From: a virus | Strand: one strand, 5' to 3' | IMG/VR virus record: IMGVR_UViG_3300050154_000158 | Length of the DNA stretch: 59,347 bases | Shown here: in pieces, positions 8,684 through 21,288 of the stretch | Numbering within the stretch: position 1 is the first letter of the stretch | Layout: every line of letters begins with the position of its first letter | The notes under the pieces: generated by a model | Databases searched by the model: none | The model's input: the letters and a program-made list of their open reading frames with translations, nothing else | What the model was told of the DNA's origin: nothing | Program-made: the position numbers and the translations under genes

Positions 8684-9673
8684 CTAGACTGGGATGTCGT
8701 TTGTTTTGCGAGAGTTAACAAGGTTTTCAATAACCAATTTATCTTCTGGTGATAAGCTTCTCGCGATATCGAGTGCCGCATCAAAATTACCGTTCGATGC
8801 AAAATTAATGGCTTCTTGCAGCATGGGATCAACCTGAGATGCTTGTTGTTCTTGCTGCTGCTCGATAACTTGCCCCTCTTGTTGAAGACCGTCATCGACT
8901 ACATCAAACTCACCAGTTACAACAAAAGAATTATCTTGAGTAACTCCAGCGTCTGCTCTCTCATCAAGCGTCACAGCGGTTTGCATTTCGATGGATACTG
9001 GCAAGTATTTGAATAGGCGGCGGATTACGGTTTTCTTTGCCATCTCTTCAAAGTGGGTCATCCATGGGCCGCTATTTCCCGCTTTGCTTTGGGCTTTAAC
9101 TGCCATGACCTGCTCAAAGCTCATTACGTCAAACTGTACGCCACCATCTTTTAACTTTGCCACCGCGTAAACATGCGTCAACTTACCGGGATCGCTTCCT
9201 TCACATGGCTTGTGCTTCATGGTTTCATCAAGACCGTACTCATAACTGAATTCATCATTCTCGTGCACGGTTCTTGCTGAAAGACTGACGATCTGTCCAG
9301 AGCGGCGGGCTAAATCAATCATCCCGCGATAACCAACAATGAACTGAACTTCTACCGTGCCATTTTTACGATTGTTGAATGGCAACAAGTAGGCGTGGCC
9401 AAGTGCGCCGCCCGGTTCCAAGCCTAACTGAGCGCATTGCATGATCGCGCCAAGAAATGATTGCTGCTCACATCGGGCAAGCAGTGGGTTTTTACGTATC
9501 TCTGTTGTTGCAATACGAGCAAGGCGATCGGCTGTCATGTGCTTTGGAAGTGCCAGCGCCATTTGCTGTTTGATTTTTGGGTCACTCATCAACCCTGCGA
9601 TAGTTTGTGGTCGCTGCTGCTGCGCTGGCTGATTTCCAGTCGCAGTTCTCAGCGTATTGTTAGCCGATGCCAT
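8684..9673 (-). CDS. recT: RecT-family single-strand annealing protein
   Basis: FLGAIMQCAQLGLEPGGALGHAYLLPF is typical of RecT. It is paired with the exonuclease gene downstream. Confidence 0.85.
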   Translation of the reverse strand: MASANNTLRTATGNQPAQQQRPQTIAGLMSDPKIKQQMALALPKHMTADRLARIATTEIRKNPLLARCEQQSFLGAIMQCAQLGLEPGGALGHAYLLPFNNRKNGTVEVQFIVGYRGMIDLARRSGQIVSLSARTVHENDEFSYEYGLDETMKHKPCEGSDPGKLTHVYAVAKLKDGGVQFDVMSFEQVMAVKAQSKAGNSGPWMTHFEEMAKKTVIRRLFKYLPVSIEMQTAVTLDERADAGVTQDNSFVVTGEFDVVDDGLQQEGQVIEQQQEQQASQVDPMLQEAINFASNGNFDAALDIARSLSPEDKLVIENLVNSRKTNDIPV

Positions 9674-9700: not shown

Positions 9701-10615
9701 TTATTTCAGGCGCAGAACGCGGGATTCAGACTGGCGCTTGAATTGTTCAAACAGTGCAGGGTGAGATTCCTGAAACTCTTTCTGGTTGAACCGATTGGTT
9801 ACTTGGCATTTCCATGTCGCAAGCGGATTGCCTGACATCGTGATAATGGAGGCATCTTTCATGGCGATCTTGAGCTTTGCCTCTTCGCCATCGATCGCGG
9901 CATCCAATTCTTTCTTTTTGGCTTTTAGCTCTTTCAGATTAAAGATGGCTTCAATGGCGCTTTCATCTGCTTCCACTGCTGAGCCATTGTCTTTTTTGAA
10001 TAACCGCTCGGCATCGCTGATTGTTTGTGGATCTGGTGGAGTGCGGTTCTGCACCATATTCCAGAAATTTATTTCCTTCTGGAGTAGGCTGGCGATCACG
10101 TCTTCATCACGATCTACTCGGTATGTTCTGAAATCATCCATTCCGATCATTGCACCAAAGATGCAAACTTGTTTGCCTGTAACCATTAGGCCGTGCATTG
10201 CCTGTGCAGCGTAATAGACGGGGATTTCATCGGTATCCATCACACCCCAATCTTTGGAAGCAAATGGATGAACTGTTTTGATTTCGATGTTCTCGCCTGA
10301 TTCGGCTTCCGCATCAATTTCAGCGCAAAGGAACGGGTATTCAGGATGTTGATAGCGACAACCACGGCGAGCAATTACCAAACCGGTTTCTTCTGCAAAC
10401 AGGTCGATAATGTAGGGCTCCATGCGTTTCCCGCGGGCAAAGATTTTTGCTTTACTGGCGTCTACTTCTTCGTTTTTGCCAACAACTTTATCCAGATAAA
10501 CATCTAGCGTGGTTTTCCAAGGAGATAATCCAAGAATTGCCGCGGCATCTGAACCACCGATATACAGTGAGCGATCTAACTCACCAACCTGACTTAATTC
10601 CACTTGTGCATTCAT
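9701..10615 (-). CDS. YqaJ-type viral recombinase exonuclease
   Basis: N-terminal YIGGSDAAAILGLSPWKT motif. 304 aa, in synteny with recT. Confidence 0.8.
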   Translation of the reverse strand: MNAQVELSQVGELDRSLYIGGSDAAAILGLSPWKTTLDVYLDKVVGKNEEVDASKAKIFARGKRMEPYIIDLFAEETGLVIARRGCRYQHPEYPFLCAEIDAEAESGENIEIKTVHPFASKDWGVMDTDEIPVYYAAQAMHGLMVTGKQVCIFGAMIGMDDFRTYRVDRDEDVIASLLQKEINFWNMVQNRTPPDPQTISDAERLFKKDNGSAVEADESAIEAIFNLKELKAKKKELDAAIDGEEAKLKIAMKDASIITMSGNPLATWKCQVTNRFNQKEFQESHPALFEQFKRQSESRVLRLK

Positions 10616-13004: not shown

Positions 13005-13040
13005 GTGTTTAATTAAACACGCATCATGTTTATCTGTCAA
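13005..13040 (-). promoter_or_regulatory. early-left promoter (pL analog) with overlapping operators
   Basis: Minus strand: TTGACA (13035-13040)-N17-TTTAAT (13012-13017). The perfect palindrome GTGTTTAATTAAACAC (13005-13020) covers the -10. ATGTTTATCT motifs lie at 13026-13035 and 13063-13072. Confidence 0.65.
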
Positions 13041-13103
13041 CATGTGTTGTGTTTATTTTTTCATGTTTATCTGTGTTTTTTTGTGTTTATGGATTTCAGG
13101 CAA

Positions 13104-13126
13104 CAAAAAACCCGCCGAAGCGGGTT
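13104..13126 (-). terminator. Rho-independent terminator (minus strand) ending the YafO-like operon
   Basis: Minus strand: AACCCGC-ttcg-GCGGGTT followed by TTTTTT. Confidence 0.75.
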
Positions 13127-13145: not shown

Positions 13146-13553
13146 TTAGTACCAGGCTAGCATTTCAATATCAGATCGACTTAATGCGTGAAATGATTCC
13201 GCTTGGATCACCAGCCTAGGTAGCGCTCGGTCTATTGTCTTGTGCGCGTCTGGTGCGAGTATTGCCAACAACTGATAATGACTTGGGCAGACAATGTGCT
13301 CAACATACACAAGATAATTGTCGCTCTTTCTGTATTGCTGATAGACATTGGGGCCCCAGCTATCCGGCGGCAGCATTATGTGTATTTTTTTAATTCTAGA
13401 TAGTTGTGACTGTGGATTTCTTTCAAATTGAGAGTCAGCACCAAAGAATTTTGGCAGGCCAAGGTTGTTTTTGTATTGAGATAGGAGGCGTGAAAATCCA
13501 ATAGCAATATCATTGCCATAAAGTGATGGCGCAATACATGTCTTTGCGGTCAT
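13146..13553 (-). CDS. YafO-family toxin-like protein (135 aa)
   Basis: Aligns by eye with my recollection of E. coli YafO: FGAD/FGRD, KIHIML/VAHIHL, YLVY..QLLAILAPDAHK/HLVY..WLLIAILKPEPHK, QAESF/MAEAF. Confidence 0.65.
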   Translation of the reverse strand: MTAKTCIAPSLYGNDIAIGFSRLLSQYKNNLGLPKFFGADSQFERNPQSQLSRIKKIHIMLPPDSWGPNVYQQYRKSDNYLVYVEHIVCPSHYQLLAILAPDAHKTIDRALPRLVIQAESFHALSRSDIEMLAWY

Positions 13554-14131
13554 TACGAAGCCTTGCGTGGGGGCTCTATACCAAGAAACGCGTGAGATAT
13601 TTCCGCTGCCGCGTAAAACTGTTCTGCTGTGAATTCGAAATCAACGTCAATCTCAGCTTGAGACATGGTTTGCCTAATTGCGTCATTTAAATCAAGAAGC
13701 GCATTTCTTACCTTGTTGAGTCTGTACACAAAGTTTTTCCCAATCAAATCAATGGAGTCATTTTGGGTTTCTAATTCTTTTGATAGCTTTGCGCTATCAA
13801 GCATGCACTTGATTATGTTTATATTTTCGTTATAGATTTTTATACAACTATCAACCACATGCATTAGATCTGGAGTTAAATCGTCAGTTTGCTCTGCATC
13901 TTTAATCTGCAAAACATACCCTCGGATTTTATTTTCTATTAAATCCAAATCTGAGAATGCCTTCATTATTTGAGCTATAACTTCATGAACCTTAAAGACA
14001 GAAACATTGCCAGTCATGTTCAATGATATTGTACTAAATGGCTTCAATAGCTCGACCGCAGATAACTGCGAATCCAGTATCTCATTAATGAGCGCAGGAC
14101 TGCCTTTTGCAACATCAGCACTGAAACCCAT
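13553..14131 (-). CDS. hypothetical helical protein (192 aa), putative partner of the YafO-like toxin
   Basis: Its stop TAA overlaps the toxin ATG (TAATG). ATG with a GAGG RBS. It does not resemble YafN/Phd-type antitoxins. Confidence 0.6.
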   Translation of the reverse strand: MGFSADVAKGSPALINEILDSQLSAVELLKPFSTISLNMTGNVSVFKVHEVIAQIMKAFSDLDLIENKIRGYVLQIKDAEQTDDLTPDLMHVVDSCIKIYNENINIIKCMLDSAKLSKELETQNDSIDLIGKNFVYRLNKVRNALLDLNDAIRQTMSQAEIDVDFEFTAEQFYAAAEISHAFLGIEPPRKAS

Positions 14132-14179
14132 ATACACCTCAACAGAACTTAGTACAACGAAAGTAACTTAATTCTATGT

Positions 14180-14197
14180 GTAAACCATTCGGTTTAC
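14180..14197. promoter_or_regulatory. palindromic operator candidate upstream of the YafO-like operon
   Basis: GTAAACC-attc-GGTTTAC. On the minus strand it is followed by a TAGAAT -10-like hexamer. Confidence 0.4.
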
Positions 14198-14232
14198 CAC
14201 CTTAAACCACGGATCGTGCAAATCAGATCGCC

Positions 14233-14260
14233 ACAAAAAGAAAACCCGCACTTAGCGGGC
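14233..14260 (-). terminator. Rho-independent terminator (minus strand) ending the cI-linked gene block
   Basis: Minus strand: CCCGC-taagt-GCGGG followed by TTTTCTTTTT. Confidence 0.65.
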
Positions 14261-14280
14261 TTGATGTGACATGGGAGATA

Positions 14281-14487
14281 TTATTGTGAAGAGTCTTCGT
14301 AAGCTGACATGACCTTTTCCATGTCATTCCCAACTTTTTCCCAATCCTGCCTGAGGGACCGTGCCGCACTTGTCGATGTTGGGCGATTTTTCATTACAGC
14401 GGAAGACAAGGGACCGCAAAAATTCACTGGCATTAGCTCCAGCATTCTTGCCGCCGCAGATAGATATTGGTTTGCTTTTAACTTCAT
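14281..14487 (-). CDS. hypothetical protein (68 aa)
   Basis: ORF upstream of the terminator. Function unknown. Confidence 0.45.
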   Translation of the reverse strand: MKLKANQYLSAAARMLELMPVNFCGPLSSAVMKNRPTSTSAARSLRQDWEKVGNDMEKVMSAYEDSSQ

Positions 14488-14518
14488 GAGTGGCCAAATA
14501 CCAAGAGCGAGGAAAGAA

Positions 14519-15154
14519 TCATTTCTTCTGCTGATTCATTTCAGTCAGTAGGGTTTTAATGTCGGAAAGTGTTTCAGCTTTTTGCTTTTGAAGCTTTGCG
14601 TCAGTATCAGCATTTGATTTGTCAATCTTATCGTTCAACTGATCAATCTTTCCGCTAAGTTTTGACTCTAGTGTGGAGTTATTTGCTTTTACGACTTCCA
14701 TTGCATTATTGTTAGCCCATAAAGCAATTGGAGCATAAATAGCAACAATACCAACAACCACTGTTAGGGCGGCCCCAAGCATCCACACTTTAAGTGATTT
14801 ATTTTCAACGAGCCGATCTCTTTTGTCTTGATGAAACTCGTCCGCGATTTGTTTGTTTTGCTCTTTCATTTGCTCGGCGATAAGCTCTATTCTGCCGATC
14901 CTTGCGTCAATTTTCGACTCTATAAGCTCTAATCTGGCATCCAGCTCACCGCGAGAAACGTAGTCACTCATTTTTTCTTTCTCTTTTCGTTCACCTTCGC
15001 CTTTAATATAGACTTCATTTGTAGCGCTCACAACAGGGGGCTCCTCTATGCTGCTAGGCTCAACTGCATATTCTGGATATATTGATTGCTGATCATTGCT
15101 TATATTTTTTGCTGAAAAGAAATCAAACACGTTATTGTCAGAGTTATTATTCAT
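14519..15154 (-). CDS. membrane-anchored coiled-coil protein (211 aa; may start at internal MSDY)
   Basis: One clear TM segment (VWMLGAALTVVVGIVAIYAPIALW) flanked by coiled-coil-like charged repeats. Confidence 0.6.
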   Translation of the reverse strand: MNNNSDNNVFDFFSAKNISNDQQSIYPEYAVEPSSIEEPPVVSATNEVYIKGEGERKEKEKMSDYVSRGELDARLELIESKIDARIGRIELIAEQMKEQNKQIADEFHQDKRDRLVENKSLKVWMLGAALTVVVGIVAIYAPIALWANNNAMEVVKANNSTLESKLSGKIDQLNDKIDKSNADTDAKLQKQKAETLSDIKTLLTEMNQQKK

Positions 15155-15164
15155 AATCTATCCG

Positions 15165-15464
15165 TTAAATAACGTTGTGCTCTTTCAATAGACTTCCAAG
15201 GTGAGCGTGAAGATACTTTAGAGTATCAAGATCTGTTCTGGCGACAAATTCCACTCTTGGTTTTGTAGCTTGGGGCTGAAGTTCGCCCACATTTCCTGTT
15301 AATCCTGATATAGAAAATATCGCCATTTCAACAACTTTTCTTTTTGTCCCGCTAACCTCATATAGATTAACCGAAAATCCGTCTGCATTCCCCCGCGGCG
15401 CTCGGTCTAGGTCGTATAGCTCGGCCTTGTTGATTGCGTTCACAAGTTTGTTTTCATTATTCAT
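15165..15464 (-). CDS. hypothetical protein (99 aa)
   Basis: ORF 10 nt upstream of the membrane protein gene. No recognisable motif. Confidence 0.55.
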   Translation of the reverse strand: MNNENKLVNAINKAELYDLDRAPRGNADGFSVNLYEVSGTKRKVVEMAIFSISGLTGNVGELQPQATKPRVEFVARTDLDTLKYLHAHLGSLLKEHNVI

Positions 15465-15506
15465 TTTTTATCTCCGTTTTATAAATTAAAAAGATTTCTA
15501 TTCAGA

Positions 15507-15980
15507 TCATTTTTTATTCAGGGCTGATGTTGGTAACCAGAACTGAGCTTTGGTTTTGTTATCAGAAACCCAGGCTGAAAATTCATCTTTCTTGATATTC
15601 ATGATCGTCACCTTCACCTTATTTCTTCCTGTTGAACAAAGCGCCACTCCTTGATCGAGCGTGTCCACTTGCGCCGCGGTTCTTAAATTGTCAATCATTG
15701 CCTTCGTCTCTCCTTGAAACTCTGGCTCTCCGGTTTCTGGTGAAATGTTTGGCGTTGTACCAGTAAGCTGAATGGTGACCGCCGCTAAGGCAAATGTTTC
15801 ATTTACGTAATTTGATAATTCGCGTGTTGGACAGGCGTAGTACCAGTCTCGCTTGCTTGCAACGGTAATGGCCGTATCTCCAGCCATACAGCCAAGCTTG
15901 TCACATGATTTACTCATGTCCGATGCGGTTGCATTAAGGGCAACTGAAAGCAAGGCGGCTCCAATAGCTAATAGTTTCAT
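15507..15980 (-). CDS. secreted/periplasmic protein (157 aa) with signal peptide
   Basis: N-terminus MKLLAIGAALLSVALNATA, followed by a Cys-containing mature domain. Confidence 0.6.
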   Translation of the reverse strand: MKLLAIGAALLSVALNATASDMSKSCDKLGCMAGDTAITVASKRDWYYACPTRELSNYVNETFALAAVTIQLTGTTPNISPETGEPEFQGETKAMIDNLRTAAQVDTLDQGVALCSTGRNKVKVTIMNIKKDEFSAWVSDNKTKAQFWLPTSALNKK

Positions 15981-16027: not shown

Positions 16028-16792
16028 CTACAGTTTTTTTGATATCCAGGCTAATTTTACGCGACCAAGAACGCTGAATTTATCTCGTTCGCCATCTTCA
16101 ATAAGGTATGGCTCATATTGTTTATTATCTGAAATCATCAGAATTGAACCATCAGGCCGGCGCTGAAGTCTCTTTATATAAAGCTGATCATTGATGGTTA
16201 GAACATAAACCGCATCGGTAATGACATCCTTGATCCCTGAGTCAACGATCAAAACATCACCATCGTAGAACGTTGGCTGCATACTGTCACCAGAACCAGT
16301 AATCATCGCCAAGTTTGAAGTGTTTGTTATATTTAAATTTCTAGCGACCCAATCTTTTCTAAGAACAATCTCTTCTGCAACAACATCATAATCAGGAACT
16401 ATTGAACCAGGGCCCATTGAGGCAGAAACATCCAACCTTGGAACAGCAACGACTTCTGAATCGACTTTATTTGCCGCCGCCATTGAATTGTTGATTTCAT
16501 GCATAAAGGCAATGTTATCGGTTAATGCCTTATTTATTGCTGGATCAAACGGCATTTGAGTTGGTGCATCAACAAGCAATATCTCGGACTCGCTAACCCC
16601 AAGCGCAGCAGCAATAACAGCTACAGTTGGTCTATCCATGCCATTTCTGCCGGATTCGTAGTTACCAATCCTTGATTGAGACCATCCGCATTTTTCAGCC
16701 AAAAAAGCCTGAGACCAATCCTTAGACTCTCTGATTTCTTTAACTTTTAATCCCATCGCGTACTTAATCGGTCTTTTTTCTGGAGTTTTCAT
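16028..16792 (-). CDS. cI: CI-like repressor: XRE HTH plus LexA/S24 autopeptidase domain
   Basis: HTH (SQAFLAEKCGWSQSRIGNYESG) and C-terminal GSGDSMQPTFYDGDVLIVD...YIKRL (Ser/Lys dyad). Start set at MKTPEKR (alternative 16807). Confidence 0.85.
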   Translation of the reverse strand: MKTPEKRPIKYAMGLKVKEIRESKDWSQAFLAEKCGWSQSRIGNYESGRNGMDRPTVAVIAAALGVSESEILLVDAPTQMPFDPAINKALTDNIAFMHEINNSMAAANKVDSEVVAVPRLDVSASMGPGSIVPDYDVVAEEIVLRKDWVARNLNITNTSNLAMITGSGDSMQPTFYDGDVLIVDSGIKDVITDAVYVLTINDQLYIKRLQRRPDGSILMISDNKQYEPYLIEDGERDKFSVLGRVKLAWISKKL

Positions 16793-16858
16793 CTGACCAC
16801 CAATCATGTTTTTTGGTTTTATACCACATCCTGTGTTAATTAAATTACATGTATCGTG

Positions 16859-16887
16859 TTTACAAACTAACACATATCATGTTTAAT
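16859..16887 (+). promoter_or_regulatory. early-right promoter (pR analog) with overlapping operator
   Basis: TTTACA-N17-TTTAAT. The -10 is embedded in catGTTTAATTAAcgat (16878-16894). An inverted ATGTTTATCT motif lies at 16895-16904, and another TTAATTAA core at 16836-16843. Confidence 0.6.
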
Positions 16888-16916
16888 TAACGATAGATAA
16901 ACATAGGACGTATTAG

Positions 16917-17135
16917 ATGAACAAAATCGCCGAAAAACGAATCTCATTAAATCTATCTCAAGTGAAGTTCGCAGCTCACTGCGGCTGGAGGCAGTCTCGC
17001 TTAACAAACTATGAGCAAGGCAGAACACCATCCCTTCAAGACTGCCGATTAATCGTGTCAGTGCTGAACAAGCTTGGGTGCAAGTGCTCTCTTGATGATG
17101 TATTTCCACCATCAAATCAGCAACGCGCAGCATAA
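16917..17135 (+). CDS. cro: Cro-like HTH regulator (72 aa)
   Basis: XRE-type HTH (LSQVKFAAHCGWRQSRLTNYEQG), divergent from the repressor gene. Confidence 0.75.
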   Translation: MNKIAEKRISLNLSQVKFAAHCGWRQSRLTNYEQGRTPSLQDCRLIVSVLNKLGCKCSLDDVFPPSNQQRAA

Positions 17136-17189
17136 CTAAAAACGCTTGTCCACGAACGGACAGGCAAACAACCACCAAGTGAGGTACAT

Positions 17190-17435
17190 ATGCAAAAAGC
17201 CGAACTGATCCGAGGGCCAAGCATTCGCACCAATAAGCATTTAATTGTGATACTCGAGTATTGCTGTTTCTCGATGAATAAATCGCCGAATGCCGGTACG
17301 CCAGAAATATTACGTCTTGGCATTAAGAAGTTTGCAGAAGAAAAACCCGAGGAGTTTGAGTTTGCAGTTAAGAAAGGTGCAAAACATCTTGGTTTGAGCG
17401 TTGAGACACTAAAGCAATTGGCTTTTATGGAATAA
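17190..17435 (+). CDS. hypothetical protein (81 aa), cII-position gene
   Basis: ORF with a GAGG RBS, directly after cro and a 7-bp hairpin at about 17150-17169. Confidence 0.5.
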   Translation: MQKAELIRGPSIRTNKHLIVILEYCCFSMNKSPNAGTPEILRLGIKKFAEEKPEEFEFAVKKGAKHLGLSVETLKQLAFME

Positions 17436-17445
17436 GGGGTAGGGG

Positions 17446-17592
17446 ATGACTGGTTCATTAAAAAGCCTCATCGCAATTGATTGCTTTAAGACTAGTGCGG
17501 TGCAAATGGCGCATATGCCGCAAAAAGAATGCCCGGCAACCATAGCAGTGGTTCCGAGCAGCGAATCCCAAGAGGAATTAAATAAATGGTAG
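17446..17592 (+). CDS. hypothetical 48-aa protein
   Basis: aaGGGGtaGGGGATG RBS. Below the ORF-track cutoff. Confidence 0.4.
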   Translation: MTGSLKSLIAIDCFKTSAVQMAHMPQKECPATIAVVPSSESQEELNKW

Positions 17593-17765
17593 CAGTCGGA
17601 GATGTGATCGGCAAGTTCAGTTCGCTAAAAGCAGCTGAACAAGAGGCGGCTCGACTTGGTTATACAAAGACCAGAGCGGGCTGGATGGGTACAACGTCTG
17701 GCGCACAGATCATCTATCTGCCAGCAACTAATCGTTACCAAGTGCAGAAGGTGGTGCCAGCATGA
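17586..17765 (+). CDS. hypothetical 59-aa protein
   Basis: Overlaps the neighbours at both ends (7 nt with 17446..17592; ATGA with 17762). Below the cutoff. Confidence 0.4.
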   Translation: MVAVGDVIGKFSSLKAAEQEAARLGYTKTRAGWMGTTSGAQIIYLPATNRYQVQKVVPA

Positions 17766-18568
17766 ATATCATTCCGTTTAACTTTGATGCAAAGCAGATC
17801 CGTGTGGTCGAGATCAATGATGAGCCTTACTTCTTTGCTCGGGATTTGGCCTTAATGCTCGGTTATTCATCAACAAACGCAATGAATAAAATCATTGATG
17901 ATGAAGACAAAAAAATAGAAACATTCCTAGATGGAGCAACCTATAAAAAACAATCACTTATAACTGAATCTGGAATGTATCAGGCTATTTTCGGAAGCAC
18001 ACTGGAATCAGCTAAATCATTTAAGCGCTTCGTCACATCAGAAGTACTTCCATCAATCAGAAAAACTGGTGGATACATCCATTCAATTAGCAATGTTGAA
18101 CCAGCAAAATTGCAATGCGACCTGATGTTTCTAGAGACCGCCGCAAAAGTTCTTCGAGTATCAGAATCCGGAAAACTTGGAATGCTGCGGACGGTACAAA
18201 AACAACACAACATTCTGAATATGCTTCCAGCATATGCGGTAGACGCACCAAGCGATGCGGTTGATGGCAGTTCTCGCGTTACCTATTCACTGACGCATCT
18301 TTTGAAAACTCGTGGCATCTGCATGACTACGGCAGATTTCAATAAATTACTGCAAGCAAGGGGACTTATTGAGCAGTTAGAGCGCAAGAGCACCAAGAAG
18401 CCAGAACAACTCAAGAAGTTCTGGAGCATCACAAACAAAGGGCTTCTGTACGGCAAAAACGTAACCAGTGATGCCAATCAGCGTGAGACAGCTCCGCATT
18501 GGTTTGATTCTCGATTCAATCAGTTGCTATCCGATCTGAATATCAAGATCGCGGAGGTGGCAGCATGA
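17762..18568 (+). CDS. Bro-N domain protein (antirepressor-type)
   Basis: The N-terminus IIPFNFDAKQIRVVEINDEPYFFARDLALMLGY fits the Bro-N pattern. Confidence 0.7.
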   Translation: MNIIPFNFDAKQIRVVEINDEPYFFARDLALMLGYSSTNAMNKIIDDEDKKIETFLDGATYKKQSLITESGMYQAIFGSTLESAKSFKRFVTSEVLPSIRKTGGYIHSISNVEPAKLQCDLMFLETAAKVLRVSESGKLGMLRTVQKQHNILNMLPAYAVDAPSDAVDGSSRVTYSLTHLLKTRGICMTTADFNKLLQARGLIEQLERKSTKKPEQLKKFWSITNKGLLYGKNVTSDANQRETAPHWFDSRFNQLLSDLNIKIAEVAA

Positions 18569-18897: not shown

Positions 18898-19883
18898 ACA
18901 CAGCAGTCAACAACGTTATTCAATTCCGACCCAGCGAGGTCAGTAAAAGTATCGTGAGCAATAAAAAACGGGGTTTTACTCTTGTTTACAAGAGCCTTAA
19001 AGATGCGCCGTTTTATAAAAATCTTGAGCGTAAATCGTTGTGGCTGCACTTGCTGCTTCAGGCTGCCTACGAAGAATGCACGGATTCATTTAACGGCAAT
19101 GTAATCACCTTACAGCGAGGGCAGTTATTAGGGTCTGTGCAGGCATGGGCAAATGATTGCGGTGTCAGCTATGACTCAGCCAGACGCTCCATTGAGTATT
19201 TCGAATCTGAAGGCATGATCACCACTTGCACCAAGAAGGGAAAATCAGGTTTTACCGTTGTCACAATGGTTAATTTTGAGTCTTATCAGGACGCCAAAAA
19301 ACAGGAAAATTCTGCCGATTATAGCGCCAATTATGACGCCAATTATGACGCCGATTATAAACCCGCGCCGCACATGGGTTTGAGCGGTGTTGATGCCGAA
19401 TACAAAACCGAATTAAGCGCCGATTATCACGCCGAAGCTAGTAATAATATAAATAATTTAAAGATTATACAGGGGGCATCAGCTTGCGCTGAAACCCCAA
19501 TCACCGACCACCAAACTGAACAACAAAACCAAGAGCCAGATCTGGAATTTGCATCCACTGAAAAACCAAGAGCGACCAGAACATCAAAATACCAAAAGGT
19601 CGTAGATGCCTATCACCGGATAATTCCTGAAATGGCTCAAGTCACAGACTTGACTGCTGGCCGCAAAGAAAAAATTAAGAATTTCTTCTCGAAATACAAT
19701 TTAACGTTTGAAGACTGGGAAGGGTATTTGACCTACATCAGCCAGAACTGCCGCTGGATGATGGAAAGCCGACCTCGCAACTTCGGCTCTAACGACGAAA
19801 GCCGCTGGAAGAAAAAAAACTTCGATTTCCTGCTGACCGAAAGGTGCTACTTGGGAGTGAGAGAGGGCCGTTATGCTGAATAA
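18894..19883 (+). CDS. replication initiator/organiser (lambda O-like role)
   Basis: N-terminal winged-helix-like region, a central repeat linker that carries the iterons, and position immediately upstream of dnaB with overlap. Confidence 0.6.
   Translation: MNTAVNNVIQFRPSEVSKSIVSNKKRGFTLVYKSLKDAPFYKNLERKSLWLHLLLQAAYEECTDSFNGNVITLQRGQLLGSVQAWANDCGVSYDSARRSIEYFESEGMITTCTKKGKSGFTVVTMVNFESYQDAKKQENSADYSANYDANYDADYKPAPHMGLSGVDAEYKTELSADYHAEASNNINNLKIIQGASACAETPITDHQTEQQNQEPDLEFASTEKPRATRTSKYQKVVDAYHRIIPEMAQVTDLTAGRKEKIKNFFSKYNLTFEDWEGYLTYISQNCRWMMESRPRNFGSNDESRWKKKNFDFLLTERCYLGVREGRYAE
19314..19361. repeat. four tandem 12-bp iteron-like repeats GCC(G/A)ATTAT(A/G)(G/A/C)(C/A) inside the initiator gene
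   Basis: gccgattatagc gccaattatgac gccaattatgac gccgattataaa. A fifth copy (gccgattatcac) lies at 19419-19430, followed by an AT-rich stretch at 19438-19472. Confidence 0.6.
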
Positions 19884-21288
19884 CACACCAGTAAGCATCG
19901 ACTCGGCCGAGTTTGAATATGCCTTGGTTGGTTGCGCGGTTTTTGAATACAACCTCGCCTGCCAGTCAGCGCTGAACATCCTGACCAATGACATGATCCA
20001 GAACCAAGAAAGCCGAACAATCGTGAAGGCTATTCGCAGCCTTGAACAGAACGGCGATCCCGTTGATTTAACAACCGTCAGCGAAGAGTTGGATCGTGTT
20101 GGCGCAAATATTCCATTTCAACGTATCGCCGAACTATGCAAAACACACTTACGCCCGCACAACGCAATGGCGTATGCAATGCGCATTCGCAACGTATGGC
20201 AGCTTAATAGCGCCCTAGTTAAATTGGATGAGCTAAAACACTCAATCACTAGTGAGCGAGATATAAAACGCGCACTGGAGTTATTGCAGGGTATTGGTAA
20301 TGAAATAAAACTGGATTCTGGCATCAGAGAGCCCGTTCGGCTAGATAAGGCCGCCGATGAGTTATTGGCCCACTACATGGGCGTAATGGACGGGCAAATC
20401 ATTTCTGGCGAGCTAACAGGCGTGCAGGGGATTGATGATGCATTTGGTGTTATCAACCCGACTGATCTGGTCGTGCTATCGGCCAGACCAGGGCAGGGGA
20501 AAACGGAGCTTGCTTTGGCGATTCAAACTGAGTTTGCAGTGCGGAAGAATAAACCAACCCTGTTTATCTCGCTGGAAGTAGAAATCAGCCAGTTGGCGCA
20601 GCGCGTCATGACTGCTGAAGCAGGGATCAGCGGGGAGATTGTGTCTAGTTGCCAAGCTTTCGAGGAAGAAGCCTACACAGGGATGCTTGAAAATGCGCTG
20701 GGAAGACTAAAAAACAAGCCAATGTTTTTGCATGAAATGAGCTCACCCACCATGCAGCAAATAGCTGAGGTGTGTCGCCGATTTTGCACGAAACATGCAA
20801 ATGTTGGTCTTATAGCGATTGACTATCTTGGGTTGATAAATCACGGAAAGGCAGACCGAAACGATATATCAATCGGTAATACAACCCGCGCGCTAAAGGG
20901 TCTGGCTATGGAGCTTAAGACGCCAGTATTACTGCTTGTTCAACCAAGTCGTGAGCTGGAAAAGCGAGGTGGAAGACCAAAAATGTCCGATCTGCGCGAC
21001 TCTGGAGCTATCGAGCAGGACGCTGACAAGATTGTATTTATCCACCGAGATTGCACCGTTGATCCGAATACTCCATGGAAGAATATTGCAGAAATTATCA
21101 ATGTTAAGCGAAGACAAGGGCAACCAAAAGACGGCTATCTGGCATTCAATAATGGGCATTTTGTTGAATGCACCAGCGATGAAATGAACAGCGTTATGTT
21201 AATAAAAGGCAATCAAGCATCAAAAGCTAAAGCAGAAAGCGCAGTTGAATTTCAGCCAAAGGGATGGTCAAAAAATGGGGGCAGATAA
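19873..21288 (+). CDS. dnaB: DnaB-family replicative helicase
   Basis: Walker A in ARPGQGKTELALAI, IAIDYLGLI, and MSDLRDSGAIEQDADKIVFIHRD are typical DnaB C-terminal motifs. Confidence 0.85.
   Translation: MLNNTPVSIDSAEFEYALVGCAVFEYNLACQSALNILTNDMIQNQESRTIVKAIRSLEQNGDPVDLTTVSEELDRVGANIPFQRIAELCKTHLRPHNAMAYAMRIRNVWQLNSALVKLDELKHSITSERDIKRALELLQGIGNEIKLDSGIREPVRLDKAADELLAHYMGVMDGQIISGELTGVQGIDDAFGVINPTDLVVLSARPGQGKTELALAIQTEFAVRKNKPTLFISLEVEISQLAQRVMTAEAGISGEIVSSCQAFEEEAYTGMLENALGRLKNKPMFLHEMSSPTMQQIAEVCRRFCTKHANVGLIAIDYLGLINHGKADRNDISIGNTTRALKGLAMELKTPVLLLVQPSRELEKRGGRPKMSDLRDSGAIEQDADKIVFIHRDCTVDPNTPWKNIAEIINVKRRQGQPKDGYLAFNNGHFVECTSDEMNSVMLIKGNQASKAKAESAVEFQPKGWSKNGGR

What the first reader, a model, noticed from the sequence alone, without database searches (positions are those of the whole stretch)
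13146..14200. YafO-like toxin translationally coupled to an atypical 192-aa partner, in its own insulated operon
The 135-aa product aligns by eye with E. coli YafO, a ribosome-dependent mRNA interferase, across its conserved blocks. The gene overlapping it upstream (TAATG junction) encodes a 192-aa all-helical protein. That is about twice the size of YafN-type antitoxins and shows no visible Phd/YefM, RHH or HTH signature. The pair has its own palindrome (GTAAACC-attc-GGTTTAC, 14180-14197) beside a TAGAAT -10, and its own terminator (13104-13126). It sits between the repressor-linked genes and pL, and the DNA is visibly AT-rich. This could be a YafO toxin recruited to a new antitoxin or sensor partner, acting as a prophage addiction or abortive-infection module.
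Basis: partly seen in the sequence, partly recalled or inferred. Interest (0 to 1): 0.7.

Follow-up and report, generated by a model that had tools for sequence, protein, structure and literature searches.

The report
Prophage YafO toxin with unannotated partner
A prophage carries a self-contained two-gene cassette: a YafO-type RNA-cutting toxin and, upstream, a 192-residue helical protein that is a very divergent member of an unnamed family, which turns out to be the usual (not exceptional) partner of phage-borne YafO-like toxins.

Summary
On the minus strand, a 192-aa ORF (14131-13553) overlaps by one base (TAATG) a 135-aa ORF (13553-13146). The pair lies between two intrinsic terminators and is preceded by a unique perfect palindrome.

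The 135-aa protein is a clear but distant YafO-family member: Pfam PF13957 at 86 bits, but far below the NCBIfam E. coli YafO equivalog cutoff.

The 192-aa partner matches no Pfam, NCBIfam, PHROG or PADLOC model. It finds only itself in two billion-scale protein searches. It is still not a one-off recruitment:
- 76 of 77 viral loci and 17 of 17 bacterial loci with a related toxin have a 169-212-aa ORF directly upstream.
- A profile of the largest partner group, built without the window protein, matches it (22 bits against at most 11.6 in 5000 shuffles; hhalign 88.6%), including a protein-level S-H-x-x-L-G C-terminal motif.

The predicted fold is a helical bundle with a tethered C-terminal helix and has no known structural relative.

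The best reading is a type II-like toxin-antitoxin cassette carried as a moron in the immunity region of a lambdoid prophage. Its role (defence or stabilisation) is untested.

Verdict: a new variant of a known kind, of moderate interest.

The parts
14242..14262 (-). Intrinsic terminator ending the upstream cI-linked operon (after the 68-aa ORF). It insulates the pair from read-through.
   Evidence: Terminator scan: 8-bp stem, 5 G-C pairs, T-rich tail. Hairpin -15.0 kcal/mol; 0 of 200 shuffles fold as well.
14180..14197 (.). Perfect palindrome GTAAACC-N4-GGTTTAC overlapping the -35 and spacer of the putative promoter. Candidate operator for autoregulation (inferred).
   Evidence: The only match in the window even with up to 3 mismatches allowed. 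The TAAAC/GTTTA spacing (N6) differs from the pL operator-like sites (N9). Chance expectation about 0.13 per spacer, so suggestive only.
14171..14199 (-). Putative sigma-70 promoter: weak -35 TGGTAA (14199-14194), 17-nt spacer, -10 TAGAAT (14176-14171).
   Evidence: Read from the sequence. Not called by the consensus scan because the -35 matches only 3 of 6.
14137..14140 (-). Shine-Dalgarno GAGG, 5 nt upstream of the partner's ATG.
   Evidence: Sequence. It supports the 192-aa ATG start over the 194-aa GTG start listed.
13553..14131 (-). Partner gene. It encodes 192 aa, predicted as a soluble all-helical bundle with a linker and a C-terminal helix carrying S179-H180-x-x-L183-G184. Inferred cognate antitoxin.
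   Evidence: No family hit. Only self in the 5.8e9 and 1.84e9 protein searches. Remote match to the partner family: 22.0 bits against at most 11.6 in 5000 shuffles; hhalign 88.6%, E 2.7e-6. AF2 pLDDT 74.5. No fold match.
13146..13553 (-). Toxin gene. It encodes a 135-aa YafO-family (PF13957) putative mRNA endoribonuclease. Its start overlaps the partner's stop (TAATG).
   Evidence: Pfam 86.4 bits, E 1.5e-24. phrog_1651, E 1.6e-24. 30% identity to K-12 YafO, E 2e-9. Residues invariant in the nine-sequence alignment (G38, H58, D78, L81, A97, P101, H104) are retained.
13100..13126 (-). Intrinsic terminator of the two-gene operon, 20 nt after the toxin stop.
   Evidence: Terminator scan: 7-bp stem, 5 G-C pairs, UUCG loop, T tract. 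Hairpin -11.9 kcal/mol.
13012..13055 (-). Context, not part of the cassette: pL-like promoter (TTGACA 13040-13035, 17 nt, TTTAAT 13017-13012) with two operator-like TAAAC-N9-GTTTA sites. It marks the left edge of the immunity region.
   Evidence: Sites at 13014-13032 and 13037-13055. Shared sequence with the region upstream of cI, 16847-16890 (I1, I8, D1).

Best explanation
This is a type II-like toxin-antitoxin cassette carried as an accessory gene pair (moron) inside the immunity region of a lambdoid prophage.

The downstream gene encodes a YafO-family endoribonuclease that, by analogy with E. coli YafO, would cleave mRNA and stop translation.

The upstream, translationally coupled gene encodes a 192-aa helical protein. 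It is a very divergent member of an unannotated family of about 190-200-aa proteins that always sit directly upstream of this branch of YafO-like toxins. It most likely neutralises the toxin by direct binding. The best candidate for the binding element is its tethered C-terminal helix and S-H-x-x-L-G tail. The variable helical bundle would provide stability control, DNA binding at the promoter palindrome, or sensing.

The pair has its own weak promoter and terminator between oL and oR, so it should be expressed in the lysogen. Loss of partner supply would free the toxin. That could follow shut-off of host transcription or translation by a superinfecting phage, or loss of the prophage. The outcome would be abortive infection/exclusion or prophage stabilisation.

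Shown: family membership of the toxin, operon anatomy, recurrence of the pairing, remote homology of the partner, and the helical fold prediction.

Inferred: toxicity, neutralisation by binding, the role of the C-terminal segment, autoregulation, and the biological role.
For: - Toxin: PF13957 at 86.4 bits against a cutoff of 25. The alignment-invariant residues shared with K-12 YafO are retained.
- Anatomy: one-base overlap, Shine-Dalgarno, flanking terminators.
- Recurrent pairing: an upstream ORF of 178-203 aa in 76 of 77 IMG/VR loci, at -38 to +82 nt from the toxin start. A 169-212-aa ORF in 17 of 17 species genomes. The same pair was read in annotated phages or genomes in four different contexts: tail module, immI region, next to cI, and a chromosomal islet.
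- Partner homology: BLASTP E 7e-5 to the Flyfo partner, 3.7e-6 to L047 over residues 50-189, and 9.8e-6 to the Pantoea partner. HMMs built without the window protein give 12.4 and then 22.0 bits, above all 2000 and 5000 shuffles. hhalign gives 88.6%. All alignments are collinear and end at the same C-terminal motif. That motif varies at third codon positions, so it is conserved at the protein level.
- Co-divergence: toxin and partner divergence correlate (rho 0.70 over 66 non-redundant pairs), and the partner evolves about twice as fast (19% against 37% identity), as expected for an antitoxin.
- Structure: a helical bundle, then a low-confidence linker (residues 160-164, pLDDT below 50), then helix 169-183.
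- Prophage context: cI-like S24 repressor, RecT/YqaJ recombination genes, and pL/oR operator sharing.
Against: - There is no experimental or co-folding evidence that the two proteins bind, or that the 135-aa protein is toxic.
- The partner homology is weak. It rests mainly on the C-terminal 90 residues.
- The window protein lacks two tryptophans that are invariant or nearly so in the family (W120-equivalent and the penultimate W). The terminal W may be constrained at the DNA level by the toxin start or Shine-Dalgarno.
- No DNA-binding domain is detectable, and the palindrome is not statistically compelling.
- Another partner group (G2; E. coli PhiR40_1, Pseudomonas YMC11/02/R656, Pasteurellaceae) has signal-peptide-like N-termini. 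That fits poorly with a simple cytoplasmic antitoxin and warns that 'upstream gene = antitoxin' may not hold for every such pair.
- Neither protein matches PADLOC defence models.
Confidence: 0.6

Rival explanations
1. The 192-aa protein is not an antitoxin. It is instead a sensor, activator, scaffold or other accessory factor of a two-gene defence system. In this reading the YafO-like nuclease is kept inactive by other means (for example intrinsically low activity until triggered) and the helical protein recognises a phage cue.
For: The partner is twice the size of YafN and has no antitoxin-type domain. Its fold has no known relative. The partner groups are extremely divergent, as expected for proteins in an arms race. 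Some related partners look exported, which is hard to reconcile with stoichiometric cytoplasmic neutralisation. The cassette sits in moron positions of prophages.
Against: The antitoxin-first order with 1-16-nt overlaps is the classical type II layout and is conserved. The only toxin loci without a detected partner ORF were those cut at a contig end. The window partner itself has no signal-peptide-like N-terminus; it has the lowest N-terminal hydrophobicity of all groups. There are no PADLOC hits.
Confidence: 0.17
2. The cassette is a bona fide toxin-antitoxin pair whose main role is selfish stabilisation. It would kill or arrest cells that lose or excise the prophage (addiction) and would not defend against other phages.
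For: This is the classical behaviour of type II TA modules on mobile elements (established knowledge). The same cassette also occurs as a stand-alone chromosomal islet between housekeeping operons in Pectobacterium, with no defence-island context. There are no PADLOC matches.
Against: In several phages the cassette sits in moron positions typical of lysogenic-conversion or exclusion genes. In the window it occupies a rexAB-like slot between oL and the cI operon. None of this discriminates decisively between the two roles, and they are not mutually exclusive.
Confidence: 0.2
3. The pair is an inactive remnant, or the upstream ORF is a fortuitous reading frame, so there is no functioning system.
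For: The partner finds no homologue in direct searches of billions of proteins. The promoter is weak.
Against: Both ORFs are intact, and the pair lies next to each other on all 10 of the 19 partner-carrying contigs that were inspected. The toxin keeps all alignment-invariant residues. The partner has a Shine-Dalgarno, a confident helical fold prediction and a collinear remote match to a family with the same gene position. The operon has a dedicated terminator.
Confidence: 0.04

Closest known systems
E. coli K-12 YafN-YafO (dinB-yafNOP operon) type II toxin-antitoxin system
   Same: The toxin is in the same Pfam family (PF13957) and shares the conserved G, H, D, L, A, P and H positions. Gene order is antitoxin-first with tight coupling. 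YafO is described as an mRNA-degrading BECR-fold toxin (PMC11980606).
   Different: The toxin reaches only 49 bits on the YafO equivalog model against a cutoff of 153. It has a C-terminal extension (F-x-x-L-S...L-x-x-Y) that K-12 YafO lacks. The partner is 192 aa and helical with no Phd/YefM domain, whereas YafN is 97 aa. No similarity to the YafN C-terminus was detectable. The window pair is prophage-borne and is not in an SOS operon.
Unannotated pair ECRS218_0007/0008 of phage CUS-3 (also in UTI89, IHE3034 and NU14: 44 of 5426 complete E. coli genomes), and the homologous pairs in Flyfo siphovirus Tbat2_3, Leclercia, Klebsiella and Pectobacterium
   Same: A partner of 190-199 aa lies directly upstream of a 138-139-aa PF13957 protein. 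The toxins are 31-34% identical to the window toxin and share its C-terminal extension. The partner shows collinear remote homology and the S-H-x-x-L-G motif.
   Different: The window partner is only about 14-20% identical. It is missed by the PHROG models for this family (phrog_35514, phrog_18235). It lacks the conserved tryptophans. The location differs: immunity region here, against tail module, immI region or chromosomal islet. None of these pairs has a described function in the literature I could search.
Lambda rexAB (positional and functional analogy only)
   Same: Accessory genes that lie between oL/pL and the repressor gene, are expressed in the lysogen, and in lambda cause abortive infection of superinfecting phages (established knowledge). 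The window cassette occupies the equivalent slot.
   Different: There is no sequence relationship. The window pair has its own promoter and terminator rather than being part of the cI transcript. The effector is a predicted RNase, not an ion channel.
Non-Phd 'guilt-by-association' partners of the YafO super-family noted by Leplae et al. 2011 (PMC3141249)
   Same: That survey recorded that YafO-family toxins are associated with Phd-type antitoxins and also with unclassified upstream partners.
   Different: The survey had 25 YafO sequences and found none on phages or plasmids. The long helical partner family and its dominance on phages were not described there.

Membership tests
YafO toxin family (Pfam PF13957) | Score above the Pfam gathering threshold over most of the model | tested here: met
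   86.4 bits against a cutoff of 25, E 1.5e-24, profile positions 2-100 of 101.
YafO toxin family (Pfam PF13957) | Conserved residues shared with E. coli K-12 YafO | tested here: met
   G38, H58, D78, L81, A97, P101 and H104 are invariant across 9 diverse members, including K-12 YafO. BLASTP gives 30% identity, E 2e-9.
YafO toxin family (Pfam PF13957) | Orthologue-level identity with E. coli YafO (NCBIfam equivalog NF007377) | tested here: not met
   49.2 bits against a cutoff of 153. It is a distant family member, not a YafO equivalog.
YafO toxin family (Pfam PF13957) | Growth inhibition through mRNA cleavage, and a BECR fold | not testable with these tools
   There is no assay here. No solved structure matches by sequence.
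YafN / Phd-YefM antitoxins | Phd/YefM N-terminal domain, about 80-100 aa | tested here: not met
   No Pfam or NCBIfam hit. The partner is 192 aa; YafN is 97 aa.
YafN / Phd-YefM antitoxins | YafN-like C-terminal toxin-binding segment | tested here: not met
   hhalign of YafN plus the short L090 partner against the long-partner profiles gives probabilities of at most 2.2%.
Unannotated long-partner family (CUS-3 / Flyfo type; phrog_35514, phrog_18235) | Sequence match to a family profile built without the window protein | tested here: met
   22.0 bits against a maximum of 11.6 in 5000 shuffles. hhalign 88.6%, E 2.7e-6, residues 100-189. The match is weak: nothing at database scale and no PHROG hit.
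Unannotated long-partner family (CUS-3 / Flyfo type; phrog_35514, phrog_18235) | Position directly upstream of, and coupled to, a PF13957 gene; length 190-200 aa | tested here: met
   192 aa with a one-base overlap. The same arrangement is seen.
Unannotated long-partner family (CUS-3 / Flyfo type; phrog_35514, phrog_18235) | Conserved motifs: central A-E-x-S-x-x-W and C-terminal S-H-x-x-L-G-x-E-P-P-x-W | tested here: inconclusive
   A114, S179, H180, L183, G184, E186 and P187-P188 are present. E115 and both tryptophans are absent.
Type II toxin-antitoxin systems (general) | Bicistronic operon, antitoxin first, own promoter with an operator-like palindrome | tested here: met
   The promoter and operator are inferred from sequence only.
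Type II toxin-antitoxin systems (general) | Toxin neutralised by direct binding of a labile protein antitoxin | not testable with these tools
   No complex prediction or assay was available.
Catalogued anti-phage defence systems (PADLOC-DB 2.0.0) | Match to a defence-system protein model | tested here: not met
   No significant hit for either window protein, for related pairs, or for K-12 YafO.

The most novel reading that the evidence does not exclude
The long helical proteins upstream of phage-borne YafO-like nucleases may form a previously unrecognised, fast-evolving class of toxin controllers. In this reading the variable helical bundle senses an invading-phage cue and the conserved C-terminal segment gates the nuclease. 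The window cassette, in the rexAB slot of the immunity region, would then be a prophage-encoded abortive-infection system of a new type, with the window partner as its most divergent known member. A further twist seen in related loci is that some partner groups appear to be exported. That would imply an antitoxin made labile by secretion rather than by proteolysis.
Probability: 0.2. Interest if true: 0.75.

Novelty: new variant of a known kind. Interest (0 to 1): 0.5.

Why it matters
YafO is one of the least understood RelE/ParE-superfamily toxins. No solved structure matched the window toxin by sequence, the family is small (about 1K Pfam entries), and the only characterised partner is YafN.

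This analysis shows that on phages the usual partner is a different, unnamed protein family of about 190 aa. That family is present even in model uropathogenic E. coli strains such as UTI89 and is annotated there only as 'hypothetical protein'.

Recognising the pairing would have three practical effects:
- Many 'orphan' prophage YafO toxins in the literature would be re-annotated as complete two-gene modules.
- It adds a new antitoxin or controller fold to the toxin-antitoxin repertoire.
- It gives a compact, testable candidate for prophage-encoded exclusion or stabilisation.

If the partner turns out to be a sensor rather than a plain antitoxin, the system would be a new defence architecture.

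Tried and rejected
- **Direct homologue searches for the partner.** The word-indexed search of 5.8e9 proteins and full phmmer against 1.84e9 representatives found only the protein itself. tblastn against phages found nothing. The family was reached only indirectly, through relatives of the toxin.
- **Nucleotide matches.** megablast of the locus against the phage and E. coli collections found nothing. The structural half of the phage gave only about 110-127-nt matches to Salmonella phages, so the host remains unidentified.
- **Structure-based annotation of the partner.** Foldseek against PDB and BFVD, with both the single-sequence model and the better family-alignment model, gave only generic helical-bundle hits with E of 0.06 or worse. 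A profile search of PDB sequences gave only weak, non-significant matches to unrelated proteins (best E about 0.01).
- **Hypothesis that the long partners keep the YafN C-terminal toxin-binding segment fused to a new N-terminal domain.** Rejected: hhalign probabilities were at most 2.2%.
- **Hypothesis that the palindrome is a cI operator.** Not supported. The half-sites resemble the pL sites (TAAAC/GTTTA), but the spacing is N6 rather than N9, and no other copy exists.
- **Conservation of a promoter palindrome across family loci.** Several loci have 6-7-bp inverted repeats, but at about the frequency expected by chance, and the sequences differ. This counts neither for nor against autoregulation.
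- **A type III (RNA) antitoxin or other non-coding element.** There are no relevant tandem repeats. The only Rfam hits are sub-threshold and lie on the terminators.
- **Homology between the signal-peptide-like partner group G2 and the window partner.** Not significant (6.2 bits, with 16 of 5000 shuffles as good; hhalign 2%).
- **First genome scan.** The scan with alignment A2 failed because no stretch was conserved enough. It succeeded with the closer alignment A7.
- **Literature.** Full-text searches on YafO combined with prophage, phage defence, PF13957, CUS-3, YafO-like and NetFlax found no description of this partner family.
Full report
**1. What is in the sequence**

The feature lies on the minus strand.
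- A 135-aa ORF runs 13553-13146. A longer ORF ends at 13553.
- The longer ORF can start at a GTG (14137, 194 aa) or at the ATG at 14131 (192 aa). The ATG is preceded by GAGG with a 5-nt spacer and matches the public gene call. I use 192 aa.
- The partner's TAA and the toxin's ATG overlap as TAATG and share base 13553.
- A terminator scan finds a hairpin plus T tract at 14262-14242. This lies after a 68-aa ORF that ends the operon led by the repressor gene.
- A second terminator lies at 13126-13109, 20 nt after the toxin stop. The hairpin energies are -15.0 and -11.9 kcal/mol.
- Between the upstream terminator and the partner gene lies the perfect palindrome GTAAACC-ATTC-GGTTTAC (14180-14197). 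It is the only match in the window even with three mismatches allowed.
- TAGAAT follows at 14176-14171. The best -35 at 17 nt is only TGGTAA, and the consensus promoter scan did not call this promoter.

The promoter and operator remain inferences.

**2. Context**

- The window is a lambdoid prophage or phage.
- The ORF at 16028-16873 (minus strand) is a cI-type HTH plus S24 peptidase repressor. ORFs at 9701-10615 and 8684-9673 are a YqaJ/RecE-like exonuclease and RecT.
- Leftward of cI lie four small genes with no significant match to any family of known function, then the terminator, then the pair.
- Next comes a pL-like promoter (TTGACA, 17 nt, TTTAAT; 13040-13012). It is flanked by two TAAAC-N9-GTTTA sites.
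- The sequence of that region recurs upstream of cI at 16847-16890 (I1, I8, D1).
- The pair therefore sits inside the immunity region, in the slot that rexAB occupies in lambda.
- Its GC content (40.2%) is below the window mean (45.8%). However, cI (40.0%) and the genes downstream of it (41.9%) are equally AT-rich, so low GC is not specific to the pair.
- The locus has no nucleotide match in the phage or E. coli collections.
- The 10 contigs inspected, of the 19 read that carry the partner, all show the same phage gene neighbourhood.

**3. The toxin**

- The 135-aa protein matches Pfam YafO_toxin (PF13957) at 86.4 bits (cutoff 25, E 1.5e-24) over 99 of 101 profile positions. It also matches phrog_1651, of unknown function.
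- It reaches only 49 bits on the NCBIfam equivalog of E. coli YafO, whose cutoff is 153.
- It is 30% identical to K-12 YafO over 83 residues (E 2e-9).
- An alignment of nine diverse members, including K-12 YafO, shows G38, H58, D78, L81, A97, P101 and H104 invariant. All are present in the window protein.
- The window toxin belongs to a sub-branch with a short deletion after the P-D-A-H motif and a C-terminal extension (F-x-x-L-S...L-x-x-Y) that K-12 YafO lacks.
- No solved structure matches by sequence.
- A 2025 review lists PF_YafO as a small BECR-fold family (about 1K entries) of mRNA-degrading toxins with antitoxin-toxin gene order (PMC11980606).

**4. The partner is an orphan only at first sight**

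- The 192-aa protein has no significant hit in Pfam, NCBIfam, PADLOC or PHROGs.
- It finds only itself in a word-indexed search of 5.8 billion proteins and in a full phmmer search of 1.84 billion cluster representatives.
- tblastn of the toxin against annotated phages found YafO-like genes in Flyfo siphovirus Tbat2_3, E. coli phage CUS-3, E. coli phage PhiR40_1 and several Pseudomonas phages. In each of the four that I inspected (one of them Pseudomonas phage YMC11/02/R656), a 179-199-aa 'hypothetical protein' lies immediately upstream.
- A profile made from the window, Flyfo and CUS-3 partners recovered 29 protein clusters of 190-200 aa, from Pectobacterium, Salmonella, Klebsiella and Leclercia among the sources that name an organism. 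None has a Pfam domain.
- The members I looked up are always followed by a PF13957 gene. In Pectobacterium the pair is a chromosomal two-gene islet between a sugar ABC operon and gcvP. In Leclercia and Flyfo it is a moron in the tail module. In CUS-3 it lies in the immI region.

**5. How general is the pairing?**

- A scan of IMG/VR with the toxin alignment found 126 viral contigs with a relative.
- Of the 79 loci kept, 77 had upstream DNA. In 76 of these the toxin is preceded by an ORF of 178-203 aa, at -38 to +82 nt from the toxin start. Only one locus (L090) has a short, 84-aa partner.
- A scan of one genome per species found 18 loci in Enterobacterales and Pasteurellales. All 17 with upstream DNA have a 169-212-aa upstream ORF.
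- These scans are biased toward relatives of the window toxin, so they do not describe the whole YafO family.
- They do show that the 'atypical' partner size is the norm for this branch.
- In complete E. coli RefSeq genomes the CUS-3-type pair occurs in 44 of 5426 genomes, including UTI89, IHE3034 and NU14. A second type occurs in 49. In every record listed, the partner is annotated 'hypothetical protein'.

**6. Is the window partner related to these partners?**

The partners fall into three sequence groups plus the single short (84-aa) partner of L090:
- G1: CUS-3, Flyfo, Photorhabdus, Pantoea and Rosenbergiella types.
- G3: Proteus and Providencia type.
- G2: PhiR40_1 and Pseudomonas type. 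The Pasteurellaceae genome partners matched no group profile but look alike at the N-terminus.

Evidence linking the window protein to G1 and G3:
- Pairwise BLASTP gives E 7e-5 to Flyfo, 3.7e-6 to L047 over residues 50-189 and 9.8e-6 to Pantoea rodasii.
- HMMs built without the window protein score it at 12.4 bits (best of 2000 shuffles 8.7).
- With a broader 48-sequence G1 profile the score is 22.0 bits (best of 5000 shuffles 11.6). The G3 profile gives 16.6 bits against 10.5.
- hhalign gives 88.6% probability (E 2.7e-6) for residues 100-189 against G1. G1 against G3 gives 68% over 174 columns.
- All alignments are collinear and end in the same C-terminal motif, S-H-x-x-(L/W)-G-x-(E/K)-P-P. 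Codon alignments show third-position variation in this motif, so it is conserved at the protein level.

Points against a close relationship:
- The window protein lacks the family's central W and its penultimate W.
- In the CUS-3 and Pectobacterium type, the penultimate W codon overlaps the toxin's ATG (AAATGG). In others it contributes to a Shine-Dalgarno-like GGAG. Part of that conservation may therefore act at the nucleotide level.
- G2 is not detectably related to the window partner.

I conclude that the window partner is a real but extreme member of the G1/G3 superfamily.

**7. Structure of the partner**

- Alone, the partner folds with low confidence (pLDDT 54.7).
- With the family alignment the model reaches pLDDT 74.5 and pTM 0.65.
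- It has helices at 10-28, 30-38, 45-78, 87-115 and 118-157, then a low-confidence linker, then helix 169-183 and an unstructured tail.
- Foldseek against PDB and BFVD gives only generic helical-bundle matches (E of 0.06 or worse).
- A profile search of PDB sequences gives only weak, non-significant matches to unrelated proteins.
- A tethered C-terminal helix carrying the only strongly conserved motif is what one expects for a toxin-binding segment of a type II antitoxin. This is inference.

**8. Mechanism**

The following features fit a type II-like toxin-antitoxin cassette with the 192-aa protein as the cognate antitoxin:
- The conserved antitoxin-first order and the tight coupling.
- The absence of solo toxins, except at contig ends.
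- The correlated divergence of the two proteins (Spearman 0.70 over 66 non-redundant pairs).
- The roughly two-fold faster evolution of the partner (19% against 37% identity).

There is no evidence for an RNA antitoxin. Placement between oL and the cI operon, with a private promoter and terminator, predicts expression in the lysogen. The cassette's appearance in at least four unrelated genomic contexts shows that it moves as a two-gene unit. Whether it excludes other phages, stabilises the prophage, or both cannot be decided here. Neither protein matches PADLOC models.

**9. Caveats and rivals**

- Toxicity and binding are untested.
- No DNA-binding domain is visible, and a 7-bp-arm inverted repeat in a 170-nt spacer is expected about 0.13 times by chance.
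- The G2 and Pasteurellaceae partners have N-termini that look like Sec signal peptides: a positively charged start, a hydrophobic core and an A-x-A-like site. I could not run a signal-peptide predictor. If they are exported, the simple cytoplasmic-antitoxin model fails for them, and the role of 'long partners' may be more unusual than assumed.
- The window partner has no such N-terminus.
- I also tested and rejected the idea that the long partners retain the YafN C-terminal segment.

**10. Comparison with what is known, and novelty**

- The toxin is a new, distant member of a known family.
- The partner family is absent from Pfam and NCBIfam, and no partner matched a PADLOC model significantly. 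In PHROGs it is split into several 'unknown function' families.
- Leplae et al. (2011) noted that YafO toxins are paired with Phd-type antitoxins or with unclassified neighbours. They found none on phages, among 25 sequences (PMC3141249).
- Papers on Pseudomonas prophages report YafO as a toxin without a partner (PMC10449497).
- One GenBank record labels a G2 partner 'YafM antitoxin'. No Pfam or NCBIfam model supports that label.
- NetFlax does not mention YafO.

I therefore rate this as a new variant of a known kind: a type II-like module with a known toxin family and an undescribed, recurrent partner family. The window copy is its most divergent member seen here. Interest is moderate (0.5). 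Partner swapping in toxin-antitoxin systems is well known. The new points are the dominance of an unnamed helical partner on phages, its presence in model E. coli strains, and the possible exported variants. All three are concrete and testable.

Noticed in passing
L013:222-758, L014:2366-2905, L074-L099 upstream ORFs; L115:3388-3918, L117:3402-3929, L118:3409-3918: A second group of about 170-200-aa partners lies upstream of YafO-like toxins in E. coli phage PhiR40_1, Pseudomonas phage YMC11/02/R656, many IMG/VR contigs and Pasteurellaceae genomes. Their N-termini look like Sec signal peptides (for example MKKTVISAALLATAVAGHSTA). An exported partner for a cytoplasmic RNase toxin would be unusual. 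They are not detectably homologous to the window partner.
   Followed up: partly
window 14281-15980 (minus strand): Four small genes lie downstream of the cI-like repressor in the same orientation. They encode 157 aa (with a signal-peptide-like start, MKLLAIGAALLSVALNATA), 99 aa, 211 aa (no Pfam hit, only weak unknown-function PHROG hits) and 68 aa. None matches a family of known function. Their position suggests lysogen-expressed conversion or exclusion genes.
   Followed up: partly
window 13005-13055 and 16847-16890: A pL-like promoter (TTGACA-17-TTTAAT) carries two TAAAC-N9-GTTTA operator-like sites. Its sequence recurs upstream of the cI gene (34 nt, 71% complementary; 16 nt, 81%). This defines oL and oR of the immunity region.
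   Followed up: partly
L012:3944-3959; L015:6585-6600: In the CUS-3 and Pectobacterium type, the toxin's ATG lies inside the partner's conserved Lys-Trp codons (AAATGG), giving a 16-nt overlap. Part of the partner's C-terminal conservation may therefore reflect the toxin's start site rather than protein function.
   Followed up: partly
L090:2699-3366: This is the only viral locus (1 of 77) where the YafO-like toxin has a short, 84-aa upstream partner. Its C-terminus weakly resembles that of YafN (NCBIfam NF007300, E 0.0044, residues 49-81).
   Followed up: partly
window 14142-14176 (minus strand): A second, imperfect inverted repeat (AGAATTAAGT...ACTAAGTTCT) spans the -10 and the 5' leader of the pair. 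It forms a hairpin in the predicted leader RNA fold and could be a further regulatory element.
   Followed up: no
L013:222-761 (GenBank PV340560.1): The record annotates the upstream partner as 'YafM antitoxin'. No Pfam or NCBIfam model supports this. RefSeq calls the same protein 'hypothetical protein' in all listed records among the 49 E. coli genomes that carry the pair.
   Followed up: yes
window 17762-18568 and 19873-21288 (plus strand): The rightward early operon contains a Bro-N domain protein and a DnaB-type helicase. Small ORFs lie between cI and Bro-N (17117-17458 on the minus strand by ORF listing, while the public gene calls place small genes on the strand opposite to cI). The cro/cII equivalents were not identified.
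   Followed up: no
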